Assembly: GCA_964016885.1 (NCBI GenBank)
Contig: OZ024745.1
Span: forward strand, 82,336,001 to 82,400,000
Reading direction: 5' to 3'
From: Eledone cirrhosa
Taxonomy: Eukaryota
Length of the DNA: 64,000 bases
This document shows positions 6,354 to 54,890 of this stretch, one piece after another; the stretch's first letter is position 1; each line of letters starts with the position of its first letter. The notes beneath the pieces were generated by a model. That model searched no databases. It was not told the DNA's origin and worked only from the letters and a program-made list of their open reading frames with translations. The translations under genes and the position numbers were made by a program.

Positions 6354-7088
<735 letters not shown>

Positions 7089-8785: not shown

Positions 8786-10047
8786 CTATTGGGGTGATAA
8801 CCCGTTTAGTTTTGGTTTAAATTTGTTGAGGAATAGATTTTCTTTGTTTATTCTTTGTTGCTGTGTGAACGAATCTGAGCACTTGTAGAAGGGGAAGATT
8901 TTAAAGTTGGGTAGTGTCATTCCTGCGCAGTTCGCAATATGGCTGCTCAAGGGGATTTTTCTTGTGTTAGCGTCCCGGATTTGTTGGCGGTGGATGGTCA
9001 TTCTTTTGCGTAATGAGGTGCCCGTCTGTCCTATGTAGTTGTGTTTGCACCCACCGCAAGTTATTGCGTAAATCAAGTTCTCCGAGTTGCAGGTGAAGTT
9101 GTTTTTTACTGTAAATGTTTGGCCATCTTTGAATGTAAATGTTTGTCCTTCAGTGAGGTAGAGGCACGTTCCACAGTTTGTTCTACCACATTTGGTAACT
9201 GTAGGGTTGAGGATTGGTTTGGGTATATTTGGTCCAGTGAGAATGCGTTTAAGTGATTTGGGTTGTCTTTTACTTTTAAGGATCTTGTGTGTTTCAAGAA
9301 TAGACTTCATTTTTACATCTTTAAGTAGGATGGGGAGGTTTTTGTGTAGGTGATCAAACATTTCGGTATTTCTGGGGTTGAAAGTGGATACATATGGCAG
9401 GGTGTTGAGTGTGGTTTTCTGATTTGGATTGTTAAGTTGATGGGGATTTAGGTGTTTTGCCCTGTCTATTCCATTGTTGATTATTTCAAGTGGAAAGGCT
9501 CTTAAGATAAGGGTGTCTTTTAGTTCCTTTAGTCTTTGCTCCCGTTTAGGTGGATCTGATACTATGGTACATATACGTTTGGCCAAATTGTAAGGAATGT
9601 TAAGTTTTGTATGTTTTGGGTGACTTGATGTGAAAAAGAGGTATTGCTTGGAATCTGTGGGTTTATAGAATATATCTGTATCTAATTTCCCGTCTATTAC
9701 AGAGATGAGAATATCCAAGAAGGCTAATTCCTTAGGATTGGATTCCATTGTGAATTGTATGTTATTATCTATGTTGTTTATCATGTTTTTAAACGTAGTA
9801 AGTGAGTTCATGTCTTCTTGCCATAGGATAAAGCAGTCGTCTAGATATCTTTTCCAATTGGCTTTGAGGTGTGTGTGGAAAGAGTCTCCAAATAAGAGAA
9901 GGGACTGACTGTATATTTGTTGTTCATGGAATCCCATGACTAGGTTGGCATATGTGGGTGCTACTTTCGTGCCCATTGCCGTACCTGATACTTGTCTGTA
10001 TGTTGAACCATTGAATGTGAAGTAGTTATTTTGTATTATTTTGTTAT
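8786..10047 (-). CDS. Penelope-like RT + GIY-YIG endonuclease (5'-truncated, open to the stop)
   Basis: GTAMGTKVAPTYANL, KRYLDD, FLD, YKPTD, CGRTNCGTC, LIYAITC..C..NYIGQT...LRKRM..H. The ORF N-terminus beyond ~10047 is flanking repeat and LINE tail. Confidence 0.9.
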
Positions 10048-36400: not shown

Positions 36401-36618
36401 ACTAACAAAAATAATGATAACAGTAATAGTAATACTTTTGATAACAATAATGATAAAATATGTAGTTATAGGTGTAGTAGTAGTTGTAGTAGCAGCAGCA
36501 ACAACAGTAGTAGTCGAAGAAGAAGAAAAGAAAAAGAAGAAATAAAGGAGAAAATTGAAGAAAATACAGAAAAATAAAACTGAAAAATAATATTATATAA
36601 AAAGATATTTAAACTTAC

Positions 36619-39077
36619 GACCGTGAAGGCTCTAAAGCATTTTGGTATAAGTAGTTGGTTTTAAAGTATTTCTGATGTTTCATCTCAACCATTTCAGAAG
36701 AAGGACGGGTCTTCAAAGCAGCACCTCCCATTTTGATGTGATGATGAGCTTGTCTAGTTATAGGAATAGAGGCGGGTAAGGGCGAAGTTGATGTAAAATC
36801 AAGCGAAAATGTATCTGATCCATTTTCATCTGGTGATGTTTCCTTTAAGCTAGTGTCTAAACATGTTTGAGCTGCAGCATCATGCTGTCTGTATTCCATA
36901 TTTCCTTTCCTGCTCTGAAAATATTTGTCGTAATTTTCTTCATAAAGATCAAACTGGGAAGTTTGAGCAGCAGCATCTTGTTTGACTCTTGTAAATGTTT
37001 CTCTTTGTTTTTCCAACAGTTCATTGCTCCTTGTTGTTAATCTAGCGATATCAAGGTTGTTCATATTTGTTTGGTCCCAGTTCTCTTGCTTCGTTCTATC
37101 TGATGTCTCGGTTAACGTATTTAATGTTGTTGCGAGAAGTACAGTGCCTGTTGGTGTTGTCTTCGTAGGTGAGCCAACCTCAACTTCACAACTAGAAGAG
37201 CTTATTAAACTATTACGACTCGCAGATTGAGGAAATTCCTTAAGGCTAGATACTTTTGATGATTCAATTTCATCTAAATTTGTTTGTTTAATATTGTGAT
37301 CACTGTATATTTCTTCTTCATCTATATATGCCCTCCTTCTCAACATCGTGATTGTGGCAGCATCTGGTATTGTAGCTGTACATTGGTCCCTATTAGTAGA
37401 TTCTGAATATTCCTTGTGGCTTAGGTTTTTCTTAAACATTTTGTTCTCCCCCAATCCAGTAGCTTCTGAAATTGGGAGTGCTCGAAAAGAATGTTCAGCA
37501 ACTAAGCATAAACTATCTGGGTAAAGTTGATGGGGAACATTCTTGATATTGATTGGTGGCAGAGGTTTAGTAGATATTGATGTGTTATCAGAGGCAATTC
37601 TAAGGCCGCCATAAGGATTAGTTAATCTGTTCATAACAAGCCGATTAGATCTTTGTGGTGGAACAACAGGTCTTGTTGACGTACTGATAGGTATTCGGCT
37701 TCCTTTTGTGTTAATTGTATGCTTTGGCTTAGATGGTATTTTGGGTTTATTCAACGGAGACTTGCTCCCGTCAGATTGGACTCGAGTTGTTTGAGCTATT
37801 CGTGTTGGTGTCTGAACCGGACTAATATGTACATTTGTGGACATCCCAGTATTTTTAAGTGGAGCAGCTTCTGGATAAGGAAATCTTTTCAGTACTGTCT
37901 TGTTGCATAATATTGCTGGATCTTGTGTAGGTTTTGTTGTTGTAATTTCTCTAGATGCCTTTATGTCTAAAACATTATAATGTTGTATTGAACTCGGAGA
38001 ATCAGAACTAAAATATTTATTTGAGCCTGCACTTAAATGCTGTTTATCCTCAGTTATTCGTTGACAAGATTTGGGTTTAATAATAATATCTTCAGAAGCC
38101 AATCCCGAATAATGTTCTACTTTACTTTTCAAATTCGTTTGCTTTAATGGAGATGATGGTTCATAATTGTCTGCTTCACGTGATGTATCTGAATGAAAGC
38201 TTTGGTAATCAGATGGTTTACAAGGTCTTTTGATTTTCTTAGTATCGTCACTTTGATTTACTGTATCTTTTGCTAACTTGTCAATTGATGTTCGAGTTTG
38301 AGGTTTGGGTCTAACTTTTATCACATTTTCATTTTTCTTGGTGGTAGGAGAATTCATTTTACTTTCGTTATCATTTATGTTAAACTGACTTTCGTTCAAT
38401 GGAACTCTATTAGAATTGGAAGATTTATCAAGCATATTAGCCGAAATCAATTTATCATTTTCACATAAACATTGTTGAAGCTCTGTAGAATTGTAACTTT
38501 CCTGTAACAAATAACTATCATCTGTTTTCAATGTTAACATTGGTGAGTTTCCTATATCTTTGTTTGACTTGCGAAATGGTGGGGTTGGATGAAATGATTT
38601 TTTGACATCTGCGTTGTTATTTGTAAGAGCAGCTGCAATGGATGTTGCTGATATAGGATATTTCTTAGTTGTATCTATATTTTCATTATATACACTCGCA
38701 GATTCCTCTTTTCCATCAGTTGTAGTGTATCTCGGTTTTATTTCATCCCAATTTTTAGATTTTGAGCTGTCTGCATTTCGTAGATCGTCTTCTTTTTTCA
38801 TCGCCTCATCCTTGTGTTTCTGAGGTGTGTTGCCAGGTGAAATGCTTTTGGAGAATATTTCTTGCTTTGTCATTTTAGAACTTTGGCTGTTCGTATTCAT
38901 ATCTCGTCGAATAGTTTCAGAAAGGCCATATTCCAATGTAGAAGGACTTGTGCTGACACTAGTATCGGAAGTTGTAATGCATATTTCTTGACCAGACGTC
39001 AAACTCGAGCTTTCTGGACTGTCATTATAGCTTGATGGCGATGAGTTGCTGAGTCTGTTCACATTTGTATCCTGATC
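36619..39077 (-). CDS. Large (~2.46 kb) exon of an unidentified Ser/Thr/Pro-rich, probably disordered host protein
   Basis: 825-codon open frame in AT-rich DNA with no TE motifs. Acceptor ctcttgtcttttattcAG (alternative start 39071) and strong donor |GTAAGT. Confidence 0.8.
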
Positions 39078-39166
39078 CTGAATAAAAGACAAGAGTAACG
39101 AATGTGAAATACTGATTAACTAATACATACATACATACACATGCACACACACACACTCACACACAA

Positions 39167-39212: not shown

Positions 39213-39321
39213 CAGATAGGGTGTGGTAAAATACAAGGTGGATCATAACCCAGAAGAGTACTCGGTACTTGGGGTAGTAGAATGGATAATATGAAAAGAT
39301 TCATATTACCCGATGGCTGAG

Positions 39322-39325
<4 letters not shown>
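39212..39325 (-). mobile_element. Solo 3'-terminal tip of a Penelope-like pLTR
   Basis: The reverse complement (gagctcagccatcgggt...ctactaccccaagtaccgagtact...ttaccac) aligns with 54351-54460. It lies between (TA)n and (TC)n tracts. Confidence 0.65.
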
Positions 39326-39378: not shown

Positions 39379-39935
<557 letters not shown>

Positions 39936-40096
39936 ATGAGTATTGACGTACATATACGTCAATACTCATCTTTTTCCATTTATCTGAGGATTCTAAACCT
40001 CATTATCAGGCTAACATTCCTTTAGTCAAAAATACGGTGAAAGCTATTCTATTTTCTAATTTCAAAACCTGCTGACTGTTTCAAAACATACTTACT

Positions 40097-40153
<57 letters not shown>

Positions 40154-40519
40154 CAAATAACGAAACGAAATTAAATTTCGTTTCGTTTGTAACTCACTTT
40201 TGTATGACTTACGCTTAAACAATTAAGTCAAAAATGTACATCTACATATGCATACTGAAATACTAGTGTGTATATGAATACACACACGTATACATATGTA
40301 GGTGTAACAAGTCTTTCACTGGTTGCTTTACTGTGAGCACCCAGCTATTCTGTATGTAAACACACAGACAAACCGGTTTTTAGAGTCATACTGGTTTTCG
40401 GGGGAACACCTTCCCTCTATTCTCCAGAAAGCCAGACATATCGTTATATGCTTTTTCATAGAAAAAGCATATAACGATATGTGCTTTTACAATTCTCCAG
40501 AAGGGCCGGTAGATAGGTA

Positions 40520-40564
40520 AATATTGCTGATGAGTTGTAACAACAACGAAACTAGTTCAATGTT
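40520..40564 (+). ncRNA. Minimal type I hammerhead ribozyme motif
   Basis: aatattg-CTGATGA-gttg(taacaa)caac-GAAAC-ta-GTT-caatgtt: canonical core, 7-bp stem I, and palindromic AACTAGTT in place of stem III. Confidence 0.85.
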
Positions 40565-40985
40565 CCTTGTCTGGCTTTCTGGAGAATAGAGGGAAGGTGT
40601 TCCCCCGAAAACCAGTATGACTCTAAAAACCGGTTTGTCTGTGTGTTTACATACAGAATAGCTGGGTGCTCACAGTAAAACAACCAGTGAAAGACTTGTT
40701 ACACCTACATATGTATACGTGTGTGTATTCATATACACACTAGTATTTCAGTATGCATATGTAGATGTACATTTTTGACTTAATTGTTTAAGCGTCAGTC
40801 ATACAAAAGTGAGTTACAAACGAAACGAAATTTAATTTCGTTTCGTTATTTGTTTTTATCGTCTCCGCTGAACCGGTGCGTACTCACACTCTATGCAAAT
40901 TAGTCTGCCCACTACTAATTTTCATAGAAAAAGCATATAACGATATGTGCTTTTACAATTCTCCTGAAGGGCCGGTAGATAGGTA

Positions 40986-41030
40986 AATATTGCTGATGAG
41001 TTGTAACAACAACGAAACTAGTTCAATGTT
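40986..41030 (+). ncRNA. Second tandem copy of the same hammerhead motif
   Basis: Identical motif 466 bp downstream. Confidence 0.85.
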
Positions 41031-41245
41031 CCTTGTCTGGCTTTCTGGAGAATAGAGGGAAGGTGTTCCCCCGAAAACCAGTATGACTCTAAAAACCGGT
41101 TTGTCTGTGTGTTTACATACAGAATAGCTGGGTGCTCACAGTAAAGCAACCAGTGAAAGACTTATTACACCTACATATGTATACGTGTGTGTATTCATAT
41201 ACACACTAGTATTTCAGTATGCATATGTAGATGTACATTTTTGAC

Positions 41246-41301
<56 letters not shown>

Positions 41302-41397
41302 AATGATAACATTGAAGACTAAAATCCAAAGAGGGCTCGATAAGGATAAATATATATCAAATATATAAGAACCGTAGAGCAAATATTTATTAAAATA

Positions 41398-41473
41398 ACA
41401 GATTAAAGTTTAAGCAAAGAATCGCTGCTTTCACCCTTAACGGGATCTTCTGAAACTAACAAAGTCAATCTGT
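41398..41473 (-). ncRNA. Type I hammerhead motif (CAGAAGA core), left pLTR copy
   Basis: Reverse complement of 45862-45937. Confidence 0.7.
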
Positions 41474-42387
41474 AAACGCAGAACTGGATATTTCAAAAAA
41501 CGTTGCAACCGGAGGAAGACAGGAAGACGATACTTTGGTTCGTGGAAACGTTCGCTGGCAAAGAACGGGAAAAAACAAATAATACGTCATTAATAGGAGC
41601 GGTGAAAAACAATTACGCGCAAAGACAGAACCCCGTTTATGGTATAAAAGAGGTCGTAGACTAATGTTCTCTTAGGTGGTGCATAGAGACGTTCTCTGGC
41701 AATGAACGAAAAAACGAAGATAATAAGTCATATGTGGAGCGTGGAGAACAATAGCACGCAAAGACAAAACCACGTAAATGGTATAGCAGAAGTCGTAGAC
41801 TAAAATTCTAACTAGGAGACGAAATGAATCTCCGTTACAGAGTAAAGAACAAAGTAAATAAATACAATACAGAAGTAATAGAAATAAATAAATAAATACA
41901 AGCAAACAAATACGTACATACACAAGCATACGCAAAACCTTACCATAGGTATAGAAAACCACGCACATATAAATATGTGTGTGTGTGTATGCTTGTGTAC
42001 AAATAAATAAATAATTATATAAACGTATATAAGTAAATAAATACGTATATAACAAGCGCCTACACATACCTACATATAAATACACGAATGTTCGGAGACG
42101 TAAGTCAATTAAAACAAGACGTACACATATACACACACCCACTATACGTACGAACCTGCATACTCACGCAGACCCAAAACTCCCGTATACATATAGCCAA
42201 ACCCTAAATACCAGAATATATAAAAAAATTATACGCCATAACAATCAAATATACGTACGAGAAGGTATACATACCTTCACAAAACATACGGGTAATATAT
42301 ACTTACCTATGCAAATAAGTAAAGGAATAAACAAAACATATACTTAGCTCCCACATCAAGACGTAAAATATCCACGTATAGATCGTA

Positions 42388-44452
42388 CTATCCGTTAGGG
42401 TATACCGAAAATGCCTCACATTTTTTGTTTAAGATGTGGTCTGTGGCGTAGAGTATTTCCAGGGCCTCAGCGGCGCAGAGGTCACAAGGTCTTTTATTTC
42501 CGTTATACGATCTAGCCCTAGCTAGGATCTCCCAGTGTAACTTATATTGGGTGTGGTTGTCTTTTAGACTCCAGATATAAGCTGAAAGTGACGTCATATT
42601 CCTTCTTAGAGGGTAACGAAAAGAATGCGTATGCATGTAAAGACGCTGCTTGAAACTATTGGCGGTTAACCCTATGTAGGCCCTACGGGACGTGGGTGTT
42701 ACAACCTTACATTTGTAGACAATGTTACTAGAGAGGCATTTCCCGGATAGGGGCAATCAGCCCGATTCCTACAATTACAGTTAGTACTAACTACAGGGTT
42801 GCACGTGTTCCTACGGCTAGGTAGTTTAGCTAAATTTGAAGCTGTGATGTTATGTGCAAGGTTAGGAGTCGTCGAGTAAGAAATTCTAATAGTATTTCTA
42901 TTAAAAACTTTACTATATTTATGTGTAGGGGGAAAATGCTTCGTAATAAGGGAAAGAAAGATCTTAGCTAATGGTGTGGCCACCTCCATATTATATGGTC
43001 GCTTAAACCAACAAATACGACGGGATCTATTTCTTCTAGGTCTATAATCGTACTCTGTATATGCTACCTTATCGACAAATCCACTTCGAGCAAGAGCTTC
43101 ATTGTAATAAGTGGAATGGTCGTTGAAAATGCGCTCGTTGGTGGAAAGACGGGAAAGCCTCAACGAAACGTTTCTTACCAGGTTCTTGGTTATGCTGGCA
43201 GGATGGTTGGAATGCTTACTTATGTAATTAAGCGTACCATTCGGCTTTCTATACGGGTAATACAACCCATTCAATAAATTGAGGGTAACGTCGAGAGATT
43301 GGCCTCAACCTGTATAGAGAGGTTGAAGCCTTTAAAGAAGGCTGTGAGTTCTTTTCTGAACCTATCGCAAGCACGAGGTCCGCACTTAGTCATGGTCAAA
43401 ACACCATCGTCACGGTACAAACCACCGCCCGCGTTGGGGAATTCGTCCTTGATAGAGAAAAGAAGGAAAAGGCCAATAAGATCAGTAACCTCCGCAGAGT
43501 TACTGGCGCCCATACTCACGTCGAATGGGCTACTATTGGATTTTTTAATCCAAATAGAGTCGTCGAAATTAATCACCGACTTTCGGGCATTAAGGATGAC
43601 ATCAACTTCGAAATCCTTAACCACTGTGAGTGTTTTAGCGAAATTGATAGCTCTAAGGAGAAGTGGTAAAGTGATGGAGGAGTAGTAATTGTTGATGTCG
43701 AATTGGATAAAACGGCAATGTTCCTTGTTACATATGCCGTTGAACCAATCAATCACCGCGAAATAATTGTTCCACAGTGCGAGAGGGGCCAAACTTCTAA
43801 TTTCAGGTATAATTCTATCAAGAATCGTTTTACTAAGTCTACCTAAATCGGACTTCGTAGGGTTAATAAGCCGAATAGAGGGGTTGTTCGGAAAATTGGA
43901 TTTGTGATCCTTCAGGGTAAAGTGGGGAGAAATAGGGTCCAGAGGTTCGGTCCGGTCCAGGATGTTGAGATCAGATGTGATTTTAAACCCAGCATCGTTG
44001 ATTTCATTGATGACGCACCGATTAGTTTTACGGTAATCCTTAGTTACAGCATTATGCAGTAGTTGATGGTAAGTACTGCGCTCCACTTGATATAGGTTGC
44101 CAGTTTTGTCGGAATGGACGTGCACGGCGTTAGAATCCTTAATAGAACGAATTCTATTCTTCAGGTCTTGCTGGAAGGAATTGCTCCTATTCCGAAATTT
44201 GATACTCCGAATGAGTTCCAAGACATCATTTTCGAAGGGTAGCTATGCTGGGTTCCACGGGGGGTTATTATAGGTTTTAAATCCAAATTTATCCTGTTTG
44301 TTGTCTGCTTTTCGCGGATTATCGAAATAAAAGGCACGCCAACGCAACCTTTTAATGAACGCGTCTGCTTTCTGTATCAGGAGTTTTAGGTATGTTTTCC
44401 TGCTTGGTACGGGTATGTTCTTTGTAGAAATATTCAGATGTTGTTTCTGCAT
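42388..44452 (-). pseudogene. Penelope-like RT + GIY-YIG ORF with a stop and frameshifts
   Basis: STKNIP..FIKRLRWRA, SDKTGN, TLKDHK, QFDI, DVSMGA, LYRDD, YRKPN, CNCR, IVYKCKV...YIGLT..FKQR, CDLC. Confidence 0.9.
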
Positions 44453-45861
44453 GATGAATATAAGACAGTAGAGTGCTCAACCGAGGGAGCCAAATAGTAA
44501 TAATAATAAAATTGAAGACTAAAATCCAAAGGGAAATGCCTCTCTAGTAACATTGTCTACAAATGTAAGGTTGTAACACCTATGTAGATTAACCCTATGT
44601 AGGGCCTACATAGGGTTAATCGCCAATAGTTTCAAGCAGCGTCTTTACATGCATACCCATTATTTTCGTTACCCTCTAAGAAGGAATATGACGTCACTTT
44701 CAGCTTATATCTGGAGTCTAAAAGACAACCACACCCAATATAAGTTACAATTGGGAGATCCTAGCTAGGGCTAGATCGTATAACGGAAATAAAAGACCTT
44801 GTGACCTCTGCGCCGCTGAGGCCCTGGAAATACTCTACGCCACAGACCACATCTTAAACAAAAAATGTGAGGCAATTTCGGCTTGTAAACATAAATTGCA
44901 CAAAACTTTCCTGTATTACAGCCCCACGTTATACCCTAACGGATAGTACGATCTATACGTGGATATTTTACGTCTTGATGTGGGAGCTAAGTATATGTTT
45001 TGTTTATTCCTTTACTTATTTGCATAGGTAAGTATATATTACCCGTATGTTTTGTGAAGGTATGTATACCTTCTCGTACGTATATTTGATTGTTATGGCG
45101 TATAATTTTTTTTATATATTCTGGTATTTGGGGTTTGGCTATATGTATACGGGAGTTTTGGGTCTGCGTGAGTATGCAGGTTCGTACGTATGGTGGGTGT
45201 GTGTATATGTGTACGTCTTGTTTTAATTGACTTACGTCTCCGAACATTCGTGTATTTATATGTAGGTATGTGTGGGCGCTTGTTATATACGTATTTATTT
45301 ACTTATATACGTTTATATAATTATTTATTTATTTGTACACAAGCATACACACACACACATATTTATATGTGCGTGGTTTTGTATACCTATGGTAAGGTTT
45401 TGCGTATGCTTGTGTATGTACGTATTTGTTTGCGTGTATTTATTTATTTATTTCTATTACTTCTGTATTGTATATATTTACTTTGTTCTTTACTCTGTAA
45501 CGGAGATTCATTTGGTCTCCTAGTTAGAATTTTAGTCTACGACTTCTGCTATACCATTTACGTGGTTTTGTCTTTGCGTGCTATTGTTCTCCACGCTCCA
45601 CATATGACTTATTATCTTCGTTTTTTCGTTCATTGCCAGAGAACGTCTCTATGCACCACCTAAGAGAACATTAGTCTACGACCTCTTTTATACCATAAAC
45701 GGGGTTCTGTCTTTGCGCGTAATTGTTTTTCACCGCTCCTATTAATGACGTATTATTCGTTTTTTCCCGTTCTTTGCCAGCGAACGTTTCCACGAACCAA
45801 AGTATCGTCTTCCTGTCTTCCTCCGGTTGCAACGTTTTCTGAAATATCCAGTTCTGCGTTT

Positions 45862-45937
45862 ACAGATTGACTTTGTTAGTTTCAGAAGATCCCGTTAAGG
45901 GTGAAAGCAGCGATTCTTTGCTTAAACTTTAATCTGT
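45862..45937 (+). ncRNA. Type I hammerhead motif with bulged stem I and U4A core
   Basis: acagattga(ctttgtt)agttt-CAGAAGA-tccc(gttaa)gggt-GAAA-gcag(cgattct)ttgc-TT-aaact-ttaatctgt. All three stems pair. Confidence 0.7.
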
Positions 45938-45984
<47 letters not shown>

Positions 45985-46007
<23 letters not shown>

Positions 46008-48313
46008 TATTGAAGCTTGCTTGAAGCATTGTGGAACAATAAGTAAATATCTTTAAGTCGTTTGGAAGCCTCGACAATGCAAATGGGTAAATCTCCGGGT
46101 AACAAAGTCCGGTGGTGGAGAGAGAGATGTAAGTGGGTGTACGTTGAGATGCGTGGTGTGTATAAGATGTGTGAGATGTGTAGAATGAAGGGAAGAGTAT
46201 AAAGGATAAAAATAAAAATAACAACACAAGAGAGAGTTACCTTGGGAGAGATTTAATAGTCCCTATATATTTCGGATTCACATCCATCAACTGGGGTTTT
46301 TTCCGGGGTGGGGGAAAAGGTTGTCTGTCGGACAAGTCCGGAACGCGTCTTTCGCTGTTTGTTGTTTTGAATATCTGAGGTATTCGGCAGAGCGCGCGTG
46401 CGCGTGAAATGGGTCGGTCGTACAGAGGTCAGCGGCCGAATGAGGGAGTGGGATGGCGCTAGCTGTCAGTCCATTCTCTGCCTGTTTGTTAAATGTTACT
46501 GTGTGTGTGTGTGCGTGTGTTGTTGTCTCGCTTGAGTGTGTGTGTGTGTGTTGTTGCCTTGTTCATCTGTATTGGCAGTGTAGTATGTTCGTATGGTGGA
46601 AAGCTACTGCGTGCGTGTGCGTGTGTGTGTGTGTAGTTGTCTCGTTTGCGTGTGTGTGTGCGTGTGTTGTGTGTTGTTGCATCGCTTGTTAACTTAAACC
46701 AGCTATTTCATTTCGCTTCTCTCTGATCGGTTGTTTATTTGCGGTTGCAGTCGTTTGATAAAAAGCGCTTCCTTGATACGTAACGTGCCGACGTTTCTTT
46801 CAGTCGCTAGAATTGTGACAATGGGCCTTCCGTCTTTGTTTCCGCATTTGTCTATATGTTTCCGGAAAGACGAGGCCCTGGTTTTAGTGTGTTCCTTGAT
46901 CCGGATGTGCAAAGGTCGAATTGTGCTACCTATGTAGTATTGGTTACACGACGTATGTGCGTAGGCAACAGTTAGCATGGCGTATCGGGCAGTCTCTGAG
47001 GGAGCATGCGTCAGTAGATTTTTCGGGTTTCCTGGAGGGGCATCTTCGCAGGGAGGGGCCCGAGTGATGTTGATACACGGAACAAGGAGGGATCCACTTT
47101 AACTTCTACAGAAAGGCAGCCTGCAGGGACCTATTCGTTCACTACAAGTCCGCCCTCCCTAACAGTGCCAAAAGAGGATACATCACGAACGAGATCGCGC
47201 GAATCAAAAACAGATGCAACGATCCCGCGAGTGGTGTCACTCATACCAAGCGATTCCTCGAGGTGCTGGAGACGAACGGGTACCCTACCTCGATCACAGA
47301 CAGAATAGGAGACACCAGACGCAAGAGACAGAGAAGCACCCAAGGCAAGTGCTTCCTTAAAATGCCACACCTGGGCGAGAAAACCACCAACGCTATCCGC
47401 AAGGCTATACGGAGGGAGGGCCTCGACATCCACCTGGCCCACTCGGGCCCCTCCCTGCGAAGATGCCTCTCCAGGAAACCCGAAAAATCTACTGACGCAT
47501 GCTCCCTCAGAGACTGCCCGATACGCCATGCTAACTGTTGCCTATGCACATACGTCGTGTAACCAATACTACATAGGTAGCACAATTCGACCTTTGCACA
47601 TTCGGATCAAGGAACACACTAAAACCAGGGCCTCGTCTTTCCGGAAACACATAGACAAATGCGGAAACAAAGACGGAAGGCCCATTGTCACAATTCTAGC
47701 GACTGAAAGAAACGTCGGCACGTTACGTATCAAGGAAGCGCTTTTTATCAAACGACTGCAACCGCAAATAAACAACCGACCAGAGAGAAGCGAAATGAAA
47801 TGGCTGGTTTAAGTTAACAAGCGATGCAACAACACACAACACACGCACACACACACGCACACGAGACAACTACACACGCGCACACACACAGTAGCTTTCC
47901 ACCATACGAACATACTACACTGCCAATACAGATGAACAAGGCAACAGCAGACACACACACACACACTCAAGCGAGACAACAACACACGCACACACACACA
48001 CAGTAACATTTAACAAACAGGCAGAGAATGGACTGACAGCTAGCGCCATCCCACTCCCTCATTCGGCCGCTGACCTCTGTACGACCGACCCATTTCACGC
48101 GCACGCGCGCTCTGCCGAATACCTCAGATATTCAAAACAACAAACAGCGAAAGACGCGTTCCGGACTTGTCCGACAGACAGCCTTTTCCCCCACCCCGGA
48201 AAAAACCCCAGTTGATGGATGTGAATCCGAAATATATAGGGACTATTAAATCTCTCCCAAGGTAACTCTCTCTTGTGTTGTTATTTTTATTTTTATCCTG
48301 TATACTCTTCCCT
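45985..48313. mobile_element. Truncated Penelope/Poseidon-like element with head-to-head inverted arms (~46189-47066 / 47440-48313)
   Basis: GIY-YIG half CNQYYIGSTIRPLHIRIKEH...LRIKEALFIKRLQPQIN on both strands, and thumb-region L..NGYP at 47263+. Confidence 0.85.
48206..48241 (+). ncRNA. Hammerhead-like minimal motif with variant core (inverted copy at 46261-46296)
   Basis: ccc-CAGTTGA-tgga(tgtgaa)tcc-GAAA-tata-TA-ggg. There are two deviations from CUGANGA, but the position near the pLTR end is as expected. Confidence 0.45.
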
Positions 48314-53585: not shown

Positions 53586-54457
53586 GATTCTGAATTAATT
53601 TTTCGTATTAAGTTTTTCGTATTAGTTTTTCATATATATCGTACGAGCATTTATGCAGTTTGTATTAGAATTTATGTATTCTAGCGGTACTCTTATATAT
53701 CGTACTAGTATTCATTTTCGGGATTCTGAATTAATATTTCGTATTAGTTTCGGGACTCTGAATTATTATTTCGTATTAGTTTTTTTTAGTATTTTGGCCC
53801 CTACTTGTTGACCTGTCATTGTAAGATAGATTTGGCCGATTACTACTATCTCATAAAATTCTTTCACTACAATCTCGTATTTAGTATTCCGTCCCACCTA
53901 TTAAACTTTTCTATAGTTTAGCAGTACCAGTTAGAAATTTGATGATTGTGGTAGGGGAATAGTAACCAGAAATTGTATTTTTTTATATTTTTAACATTCT
54001 TATATTTTTCTATATATTTACTACATATAGATTTACTTATTGTTTCGACTTCCTCACCCCTCTCTAGTATACTTCTCTTGACCTCTTATCCTTAGGATTC
54101 TGATGTAGTTGTCACTTTCAACGCACGACTGGGTTTCCTCCACTCCCTCTCCCTCTTTCTTCTACTGGCAAGTTCAGCTACCCTTTCCTTCCACAAAATG
54201 CTATGATAGAATTATGTGTCTCAACAACAAACTTTTGACCAATCCTTGTGACAATCACTTTTACCATATATGGAATCACCCCCTGAGAAGCTCGGCTATT
54301 CATTTATAAACATTTTTGATTTAGTCCAGAATTAGCCGTCGAAACGGCTTGAGCTCAGCCGTCGGGGTCCTACTCGTTCCTATTACCCACTCTACTACCC
54401 TAAGTATTGAGTACTTTGGTGCGTTATGGTACATCTGGTTTCTTACCACTTTTCCTT

Positions 54458-54460: not shown

Positions 54461-54491
<31 letters not shown>

Positions 54492-54504
<13 letters not shown>

Positions 54505-54791
54505 TGTATATATAATGTATTTTGCAATACACTTTATGCTTAATTAAAAGCATTTTGAAGACCGTATGCTATTGTTTTAGAGTAGTGACAAACTCACTTA
54601 CTTTAATCTCAGCAAACAAGGGGAGATAAAGGCTTTATCTCCCCTTGTTTGCTGAGATTAAAGTAAGTGAGTTTGTCACTACTCTAAAACAATAGCATAC
54701 GGTCTTCAAAATGCTTTTAATTAAGCATAAAGTGTATTGCAAAATACATTATATATACATTCATATATATATTGCTATTTCAGAGCTCCAA

Positions 54792-54841
<50 letters not shown>

Positions 54842-54890
54842 TTGGAGCTCTGAAATAGCAATATATATATGAATGTATATATAATGTATA
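54492..54890. mobile_element. Palindromic copy of retrozyme-like family B
   Basis: ~140-bp perfect inverted arms meet at 54632, with a second inversion across (TA)n at 54800-54835. Homologous to 39547-39716. Confidence 0.8.

What the first reader, a model, noticed from the sequence alone, without database searches (positions are those of the whole stretch)
54492..54800. DNA palindrome whose axis sits at the predicted ribozyme cleavage site
Seen: in the 39.7-kb family-B copy the hammerhead predicts a cut CUGUC^agcuuuaucuccccuug. In this second copy the ribozyme core is absent, and ~140-bp perfect inverted arms meet at gataaag-g-ctttatctccccttg (54632), within 1-2 nt of that predicted 5' end. 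Inference: the integrated cDNA was copied from a self-cleaved RNA, and synthesis folded back on reaching the RNA end. This would be a genomic footprint of in vivo ribozyme activity and a mechanism for Penelope-type inverted ends.
Basis: partly seen in the sequence, partly recalled or inferred. Interest (0 to 1): 0.82.

Follow-up and report, generated by a model that had tools for sequence, protein, structure and literature searches.

The report
Head-to-head ribozyme retroelement insertion
The mirror-image sequence is real: two copies of the end of a small hammerhead-ribozyme repeat joined head to head, a known layout likely made by a Penelope-type jumping-gene enzyme, and although the join lies beside the predicted self-cutting site, sequencing reads from other copies show no pile-up of ends there, so it is more likely a coincidence than a record of cutting.

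Summary
Observation confirmed: perfect 140-bp arms (54492-54631, 54633-54772) around one G. They end at +3 and +2 of the cut predicted for the 39.7-kb copy's type I hammerhead. That hammerhead has a U3-A8 core, and stems II and III vary in matched pairs in public reads. The two outer ends, 27 nt apart in (TA)n, coincide with two family-wide end points. This is the known Penelope layout (inverted copy, one-sided tail) and favours priming from both ends of one DNA break over a single fold-back. The cleavage-footprint claim rests on one event (about 2-4% by chance, beside a self-complementary AGCT). The family test does not support it: no depth step at the cut in four runs (raw reads -0.4% and -0.5%), and no strand-switch joint there. 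Two other fold-backs in the window turn away from any known cut. That negative is weak for perfect palindromes, which short reads may under-sample. Odds that cleavage set the axis: about 0.35. The scan noted two-ended insertions and cut-site coincidences before, in this genome and others.

The parts
54492..54631 (-). Left arm: family-B segment +3 to about +142 after the predicted cut; outer end merges into (TA)n (no tail)
   Evidence: outer end equals 39573 of the reference copy, where run X10 has 541 loose ends reading (AT)n
54632..54632 (.). Single unpaired G at the axis (reads as +2 of the right arm)
54633..54772 (+). Right arm, RNA sense on +, exact mirror of the left arm
54773..54800 (+). 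One-sided 26-28-nt tail of the right arm, ending in (TA)n
   Evidence: outer end equals 39547-39545, where run X1 has 26 loose-ended contigs
54798..54836 (.). (TA)n run; axis of a second perfect palindrome (54744-54889, 73-nt arms)
54833..54889 (-). Third, 57-nt family-B copy, tail to tail with the right arm, 100% identical to it
54461..54500 (.). Left (TA)n target, itself the 3' end of a different hammerhead-bearing element
39547..39895 (-). Reference family-B copy: one 321-nt unit (34% GC, no long ORF) plus a 23-28-nt repeat of the tail; reads through the ribozyme
39684..39783 (-). Type I hammerhead with long stem I, U3-A8 core and palindromic stem III; predicted cut between 39717 and 39716
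   Evidence: z -6.06; hammerhead fold -32.1 vs -35.0 kcal/mol unconstrained; paired variation

Best explanation
The palindrome is two copies of the 3' part of a 321-nt hammerhead-bearing repeat joined head to head in (TA)n, likely written by a Penelope-type reverse transcriptase priming from both ends of one DNA break, and its axis likely lies beside the ribozyme cut site by coincidence rather than because the RNA was cut. Steps: (1) shown: arms, tail, (TA)n flanks, position of the axis. (2) Shown in reads: the two outer ends match two end points shared across the family, 27 nt apart. (3) Inferred: each DNA end primed cDNA at one of those two start points. (4) Inferred: the two cDNAs stopped inside ribozyme stem I and were joined at or next to the self-complementary AGCT that follows the cut, on an uncut, re-ligated or circular template. 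(5) Inferred: the third arm is a further priming or a fold-back at the (TA)n run.
For: Outer ends match family-wide loose-end piles at 39573 (X10, 541 reads) and 39547 (X1, 26 contigs). The layout matches the published inverted copy with one-sided tail, and a purified PLE protein cuts and extends both strands and starts at two adjacent internal sites. There is no depth step across the cut: X11 -0.4%, X12 -0.5%, X2 -9%, X3 -14%, ranking 12th, 12th, 11th and 8th of 19 inner steps. 0 of 6 strand-switch joints shown (15 of 23 joints shown) lie at 39714-39717, and one search lists no strand-switch joint at all. The window's other family-B copy reads through the cut. The 40.4-kb fold-back turns at a natural micro-hairpin 105 nt upstream of its cut, and the second palindrome here turns in (TA)n. 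AGCT at +1..+4 is 1 of 17 spacer-less self-complementary sites in +1..+140. In vitro, uncut RNA was the dominant template for one PLE.
Against: Both arms end within 2 nt of the cut (2-4% by chance). Clean annealing at AGCT would give a spacer-less palindrome, and the locus has one extra G. A much stronger 12-nt self-complementary site 7 nt upstream of the cut (stem III) was not used. The read negative is weak for perfect palindromes: hairpin fragments are probably under-sequenced (my knowledge), the window's own junction was not seen either, and it matches the reference exactly for only 23 nt per side. Contig depth falls about tenfold from 39610 to 39700, which would also fit hidden palindromes near the cut. 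Three same-strand deletion joints start 2-3 nt upstream of the cut (39718 and 39719 in X1, 39719 in X12). The untailed end lies in a TATATA run, so a snap-back strand could also have ended there. No autonomous partner of family B was found.
Confidence: 0.5

Rival explanations
1. Same two-ended priming, but on a self-cleaved linear monomer RNA. Both cDNAs ran off the 5'-OH end, lost 1-2 nt and were end-joined, so the axis is a true footprint of in vivo cleavage.
For: Both ends lie within 2 nt of the cut. The junction uses no clean microhomology. The 12-nt stem III palindrome just upstream was not reached. The ribozyme shows paired variation. Animal retrozymes accumulate as linear and circular monomers. 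R2 5' junctions track ribozyme cut sites (abstract).
Against: Single event. At most about 0.5% of raw reads crossing the site stop there. No strand-switch joint and no top-ranked loose-end pile at the cut (many loose-end rows hidden). No RNA ends at the cut were found for the anole element.
Confidence: 0.25
2. One reading: one cDNA ran off the cleaved RNA end and snapped back on itself, copying 140 nt before joining (TA)n.
For: The left arm is an exact subset of the right. Snap-back after full-length cDNA synthesis is documented for R2 proteins. Short snap-back-like hairpins occur at two other inner junctions in the window.
Against: A 1-nt spacer leaves no natural hairpin loop, unlike the 3- and 4-nt loops at 40436-40482 and 39933-39972. 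The copied arm ends exactly at a family-wide end point. No family pile-up at the cut.
Confidence: 0.1
3. DNA-level fold-back (replication template switch or cruciform repair) of a single 5'-truncated copy, with no role for the ribozyme.
For: A second perfect palindrome centred on (TA)n adjoins it, and another (TA)n-centred one lies at 6947-7088. All three arms are identical.
Against: Does not explain why the outer ends match the two family end points or the one-sided tail.
Confidence: 0.1
4. Read chimera or assembly artefact.
For: The junction was not seen in any of the 8 runs laid on the reference copy. No long reads were listed.
Against: The left and right flanks are different sequences. The arm ends match biological end points. 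The window holds several other inverted retroelement ends with spacers. The best runs hold only 55-57% of the reference copy's words, so they may lack this allele.
Confidence: 0.05

Closest known systems
Insertions of endonuclease-bearing Penelope-like elements with inverted 5'-truncated pLTR and one-sided tail (Arkhipova et al. 2013, PMC3846280; Craig et al. 2021, PMC8557442; passages read)
   Same: Head-to-head inverted copy, palindrome at the junction, tail at one end only, (TA)n target, hammerhead in the repeat
   Different: No ORF. Tail 26-28 nt rather than 30-40. No target duplication can be read in (TA)n. The axis falls at the ribozyme cut, which the passages I read do not discuss.
Animal non-LTR retrozymes (Cervera and de la Pena 2020, PMC7229834, passages; Li et al. 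2026 preprint 10.64898/2026.07.22.740005, part 1 of 5 and passages)
   Same: About 300-nt, low-GC, non-coding unit with a type I hammerhead; read-through past the cut
   Different: Only 1.09 units in the window, so the two-unit criterion is not met here; circular RNA not shown
Poseidon of Anolis carolinensis, PAc (Frangieh et al. 2024, PMC11167929; parts 1-2 of 4 read)
   Same: Two adjacent internal start sites defining the tail; both strands cut and extended; AT-rich targets
   Different: Autonomous. There, hammerhead cleavage was not needed in vitro and no RNA ends mapped to the cut.
R2 retrotransposon 5' junctions and snap-back (Eickbush et al. 2013, PMC3774820, abstract only; Zhang et al. 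2024, PMC11371274, and PMC11331408, passages)
   Same: A ribozyme cut can define an insertion's 5' end; cDNA can snap back after reaching the template end
   Different: HDV-like ribozyme and a site-specific LINE; junction type correlates with the cut site across species there, while here there is one case

Membership tests
Type I hammerhead ribozyme | Conserved core, with C3-G8 or a compensating pair, and an NUH site | tested here: met
   U3-A8 core, GAAA and GUC. U3-A8 is a natural variant, active in vitro (PMC3088659 passage). No variant at core positions among 40 of 46 rows shown at 4% or more.
Type I hammerhead ribozyme | Three stems supported by compensatory change | tested here: met
   Partner positions vary at matching frequency (reads, both directions summed): 39745/39734 277/279 in X11 and 248/251 in X12; 39725/39722 148/128 and 118/108; 39726/39721 104/110 and 84/94. 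Not phased on single reads.
Type I hammerhead ribozyme | Self-cleavage | not testable with these tools
   No assay possible; no raw RNA reads listed. Rfam gave no hammerhead hit for this copy at E up to 1.
Animal non-LTR retrozyme | Short, low-GC, non-coding unit with a type I hammerhead | tested here: met
   321 nt, 33.6% GC; 4 ATG ORFs of 30 aa or more overlap it, 35-49 aa except one 85-aa frame mostly in flanking microsatellite
Animal non-LTR retrozyme | Two or more tandem units each with a complete hammerhead | tested here: inconclusive
   The window has 1.09 units. One contig in X4 shows the 321-nt return joint 39867 to 39547, which supports a tandem or circular junction but not two whole units.
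Animal non-LTR retrozyme | Accumulates as circular and linear monomer RNA | not testable with these tools
   No RNA holder listed
Insertion made by an EN+ Penelope-like element | Inverted 5'-truncated copy, head to head | tested here: met
Insertion made by an EN+ Penelope-like element | One-sided 30-40-bp tail and AT-rich or (TA)n target | tested here: met
   Tail 26-28 nt, slightly short of the published range; (TA)n on both sides; matching end piles in reads
Insertion made by an EN+ Penelope-like element | Autonomous RT plus GIY-YIG partner sharing the pLTR | tested here: inconclusive
   The ORF at 8786-9991 (-) resembles HTH_animal/GIY-YIG/RVT_1 clusters at 0.93-0.97, but no ORF in the window is flanked by family B. 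Pfam found nothing for it at E 0.001. No genome was held.
Ribozyme-defined 5' junction (R2-like) | Copies end preferentially at the cut site | tested here: not met
   No depth step and no strand-switch joint at the cut; weak for perfect palindromes, and reduced-representation reads sample few loci

The most novel reading that the evidence does not exclude
A minority of these retrozyme-like insertions are copied from a self-cleaved linear monomer by two reverse transcriptases at once and joined at the cleaved end. This would leave a class of perfect palindromes, under-sampled by short reads, that records hammerhead cleavage in the germ line and shows that cut RNA can be a Penelope template.
Probability: 0.3. 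Interest if true: 0.62.

Novelty: new member of a known kind. Interest (0 to 1): 0.3.

Why it matters
The role of hammerheads in Penelope-like elements is open: PMC8557442 calls it unclear, and PMC11167929 found cleavage unnecessary in vitro and no RNA ends at the site. A family-wide peak of palindrome axes at the cut would be direct genomic evidence that cut RNA is used as template. As it stands this is one well-placed example of a known insertion layout, and the family data I could reach do not show such a peak.

Tried and rejected
No whole genome was held, so the genome-wide histogram could not be made. Reads were laid on the 39.7-kb reference copy, not on the palindrome, so the locus itself is unconfirmed. 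No RNA holder listed. Pattern scans for more copies: metagenome contigs gave 1 locus, L001, with a 24-nt exact match that ends at cut+2 but has unrelated flanks, which I rejected as probable chance; genome contigs 0; viral contigs 0. Rfam miRNA hits over the palindromes are below gathering scores and arise from the hairpin shape. Molecule begin/end piles in X10-X12 fall at AATT sites and were set aside as probable restriction cuts of the RAD libraries (enzyme inferred). Look-ups of earlier findings by sequence and by nearby place returned nothing. Pfam found 1 weak hit among 10 ORFs. The family-C hammerhead at 54.3 kb does not fold better than shuffles (z -1.14). Four of the 6 strand-switch joints shown have one side at 39860-39866, which might mean one full lap of a circle; I could not tell joint orientation and did not use it. 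Literature searches found no paper linking a Penelope inversion axis to the hammerhead cut; the library lacks most subscription papers, and bioRxiv supplements were closed.

Full report
Observation. The window is microsatellite-rich animal DNA; earlier scan notes call the genome an octopus, which I did not check. The palindrome is as described: arms 54492-54631 and 54633-54772, 140 nt, 100% complementary, one G between them. Both arms are 92% identical to a copy at 39547-39895 on the minus strand. That copy is one 321-nt unit plus a 23-28-nt repeat of its end, 33.6% GC, with no long ORF. The right arm begins at +2 and the left arm ends at +3 relative to the predicted cut.

The ribozyme. A motif scan of both strands of the window found 3 type I candidates, one of them at 39.7 kb with the cut between 39717 and 39716. 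Rfam did not report it at E up to 1. Its core has U3 and A8 in place of C3 and G8, a natural pairing variant reported active in vitro (PMC3088659, passage). The region folds far better than shuffles (z -6.06), mostly through a long stem I; the hammerhead fold costs 2.9 kcal/mol over the minimum. In public DNA runs, partner positions in stems II and III vary at matching frequencies, and no core position appears among the 40 of 46 variant rows shown (unphased). Stem III is palindromic, as in Penelope-type hammerheads thought to act as dimers (PMC4209133, passages). The cut position is therefore well founded. Cleavage itself is untested.

How the insertion was likely made. The left arm's outer end corresponds to 39573 and the right arm's to 39547-39545. 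Reads show loose-end piles at both places: 541 reads with (AT)n at 39573 in X10, and 26 contigs at 39547 in X1. An inverted copy, a tail at one end only and a (TA)n target are the published layout of endonuclease-bearing Penelope-like insertions (PMC8557442 and PMC3846280, passages). A purified Penelope-type protein cuts and extends both strands and starts at two adjacent internal sites that define the tail (PMC11167929, parts 1-2). I infer priming from both ends of one break, with the two cDNAs joined head to head. I reached this from the tail and that paper. Earlier scan notes on other families in this genome propose the same; they are AI notes, not evidence. Snap-back of a single cDNA, known for R2, is not excluded, because the untailed end lies in a TATATA run.

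Does the axis record cleavage? For: both ends are within 2 nt of the cut, 2.1-3.6% by chance over the arm. The junction has one G more than clean annealing at the self-complementary AGCT would give. The stronger 12-nt palindrome of stem III, 7 nt upstream, was not used. Three deletion joints start 2-3 nt upstream of the cut, though these include bases from the far side of the cut and so need no cleavage.

Against: in 5-nt bins the depth step across the cut is -0.4% (X11), -0.5% (X12), -9% (X2) and -14% (X3), ranking 12th, 12th, 11th and 8th of 19 inner steps. X1 and X10 show no step in 15-nt bins either. Of 15 joints shown out of 23, 6 switch strand and none lies at 39714-39717. The nearest, 39668/39670 (57 reads, one start), is about 47 nt inside. 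One search lists one joint in all, with no strand switch. No loose-end pile at the cut is among the rows shown (24 shown in each call; 474 and 233 hidden). In the window, other arm ends lie at +11 and -105 (40.4-kb family), about -11 to -13 (39.3-kb fragment, read from the printed sequence), -179 (the 39.5-kb copy) and about +116 (third arm). The 40.4-kb junction extends a natural micro-hairpin to 22 bp, which shows fold-back far from a cut. For the anole element, uncut RNA was the main template and no RNA ends mapped to the cut.

Limits of the negative. The window's own junction was not seen in any of the 8 runs, so sensitivity to it is unknown. It matches the reference exactly for only 23 nt per side, the best runs hold 55-57% of the reference's words, X1-X3 are one sample, and X10-X12 are reduced-representation libraries from one study. 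Perfect palindromes are probably under-represented in short reads and assembled contigs (my knowledge). The tenfold fall in contig depth from 39610 to 39700 fits ordinary 5' truncation but also hidden palindromes. Weighing a low prior against a 2-6% coincidence rate, I put the chance that cleavage set this axis at about 0.35. This figure is a judgement, not a computed value.

Artefact. Unlikely (about 0.05): the flanks differ, the arm ends match biological end points, and the window holds other inverted retroelement ends. Long reads would settle it.

Comparison and verdict. It works like a Penelope-type inverted pLTR insertion of a retrozyme-like unit. The hammerhead and insertion-layout tests are met. 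The tandem-unit and autonomous-partner tests are inconclusive. The test for a ribozyme-defined junction is not met on the data I could reach. Ribozyme-linked 5' junctions are known for R2 (PMC3774820, abstract). My searches found no paper tying a Penelope inversion axis to the hammerhead cut. Verdict: new member of a known kind, interest 0.3, with a testable more novel reading at probability 0.3.

Noticed in passing
window 39547-40106: The reference family-B copy is joined at its inner end, through three short repeated pieces and an 18-bp hairpin (39933-39972), to a different abundant repeat (39950 onward) that runs towards (TA)n at about 40106. It may be a two-armed insertion with a different RNA on each side.
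   Followed up: partly
window 40147-41251: A second hammerhead family: 466-nt partial tandem with two canonical type I motifs (Rfam HH9, 35 bits, below gathering) and an inverted 292-nt arm. The inner junction extends a natural micro-hairpin to 22 bp, and the arm ends are 74 nt apart.
   Followed up: partly
window 54280-54370 (+) and 39223-39325 (-): A third hammerhead family. The 54.3-kb copy has a C3-A8 mismatch and ends at the (TA)n into which the palindrome inserted; it lies downstream of a broken RT/endonuclease-like ORF at about 51.7-53.1 kb. The 39.3-kb fragment starts 11-13 nt upstream of its cut, in the palindromic stem III.
   Followed up: partly
window 39686-39688 and 39781-39783: Many reads stop matching at both ends of the ribozyme's long stem I with diverse flanks (agreement about 0.4). 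The 100-nt hairpin may be a module shared by several families, though both places are also near AATT sites.
   Followed up: no
window 39821-39867 and 39547-39596: Thousands of reads share only the roughly 100 nt around the 3' end points and then diverge with one fixed sequence, suggesting another family with the same end module and no shared ribozyme.
   Followed up: no
window 39860-39866: Four of 6 strand-switch joints shown have one side here, just short of one full unit from the tailed end; possibly one lap of a circular template, orientation unresolved.
   Followed up: no
window 41383-45952 and 46189-48313: Two larger insertions with inverted ends (arms about 1.4 kb and 0.9 kb) around broken RT/endonuclease-like ORFs; my scan found no canonical hammerhead in them.
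   Followed up: no
window 6947-7088: Another perfect palindrome (67-nt arms) centred on (TA)n.
   Followed up: no
window 36615-39119 (-): An 834-aa open frame without a Pfam match, probably a large host exon.
   Followed up: no
L001 601-624: A 24-nt exact match to family B ending at cut+2, in an unrelated metagenome contig; probably chance.
   Followed up: partly
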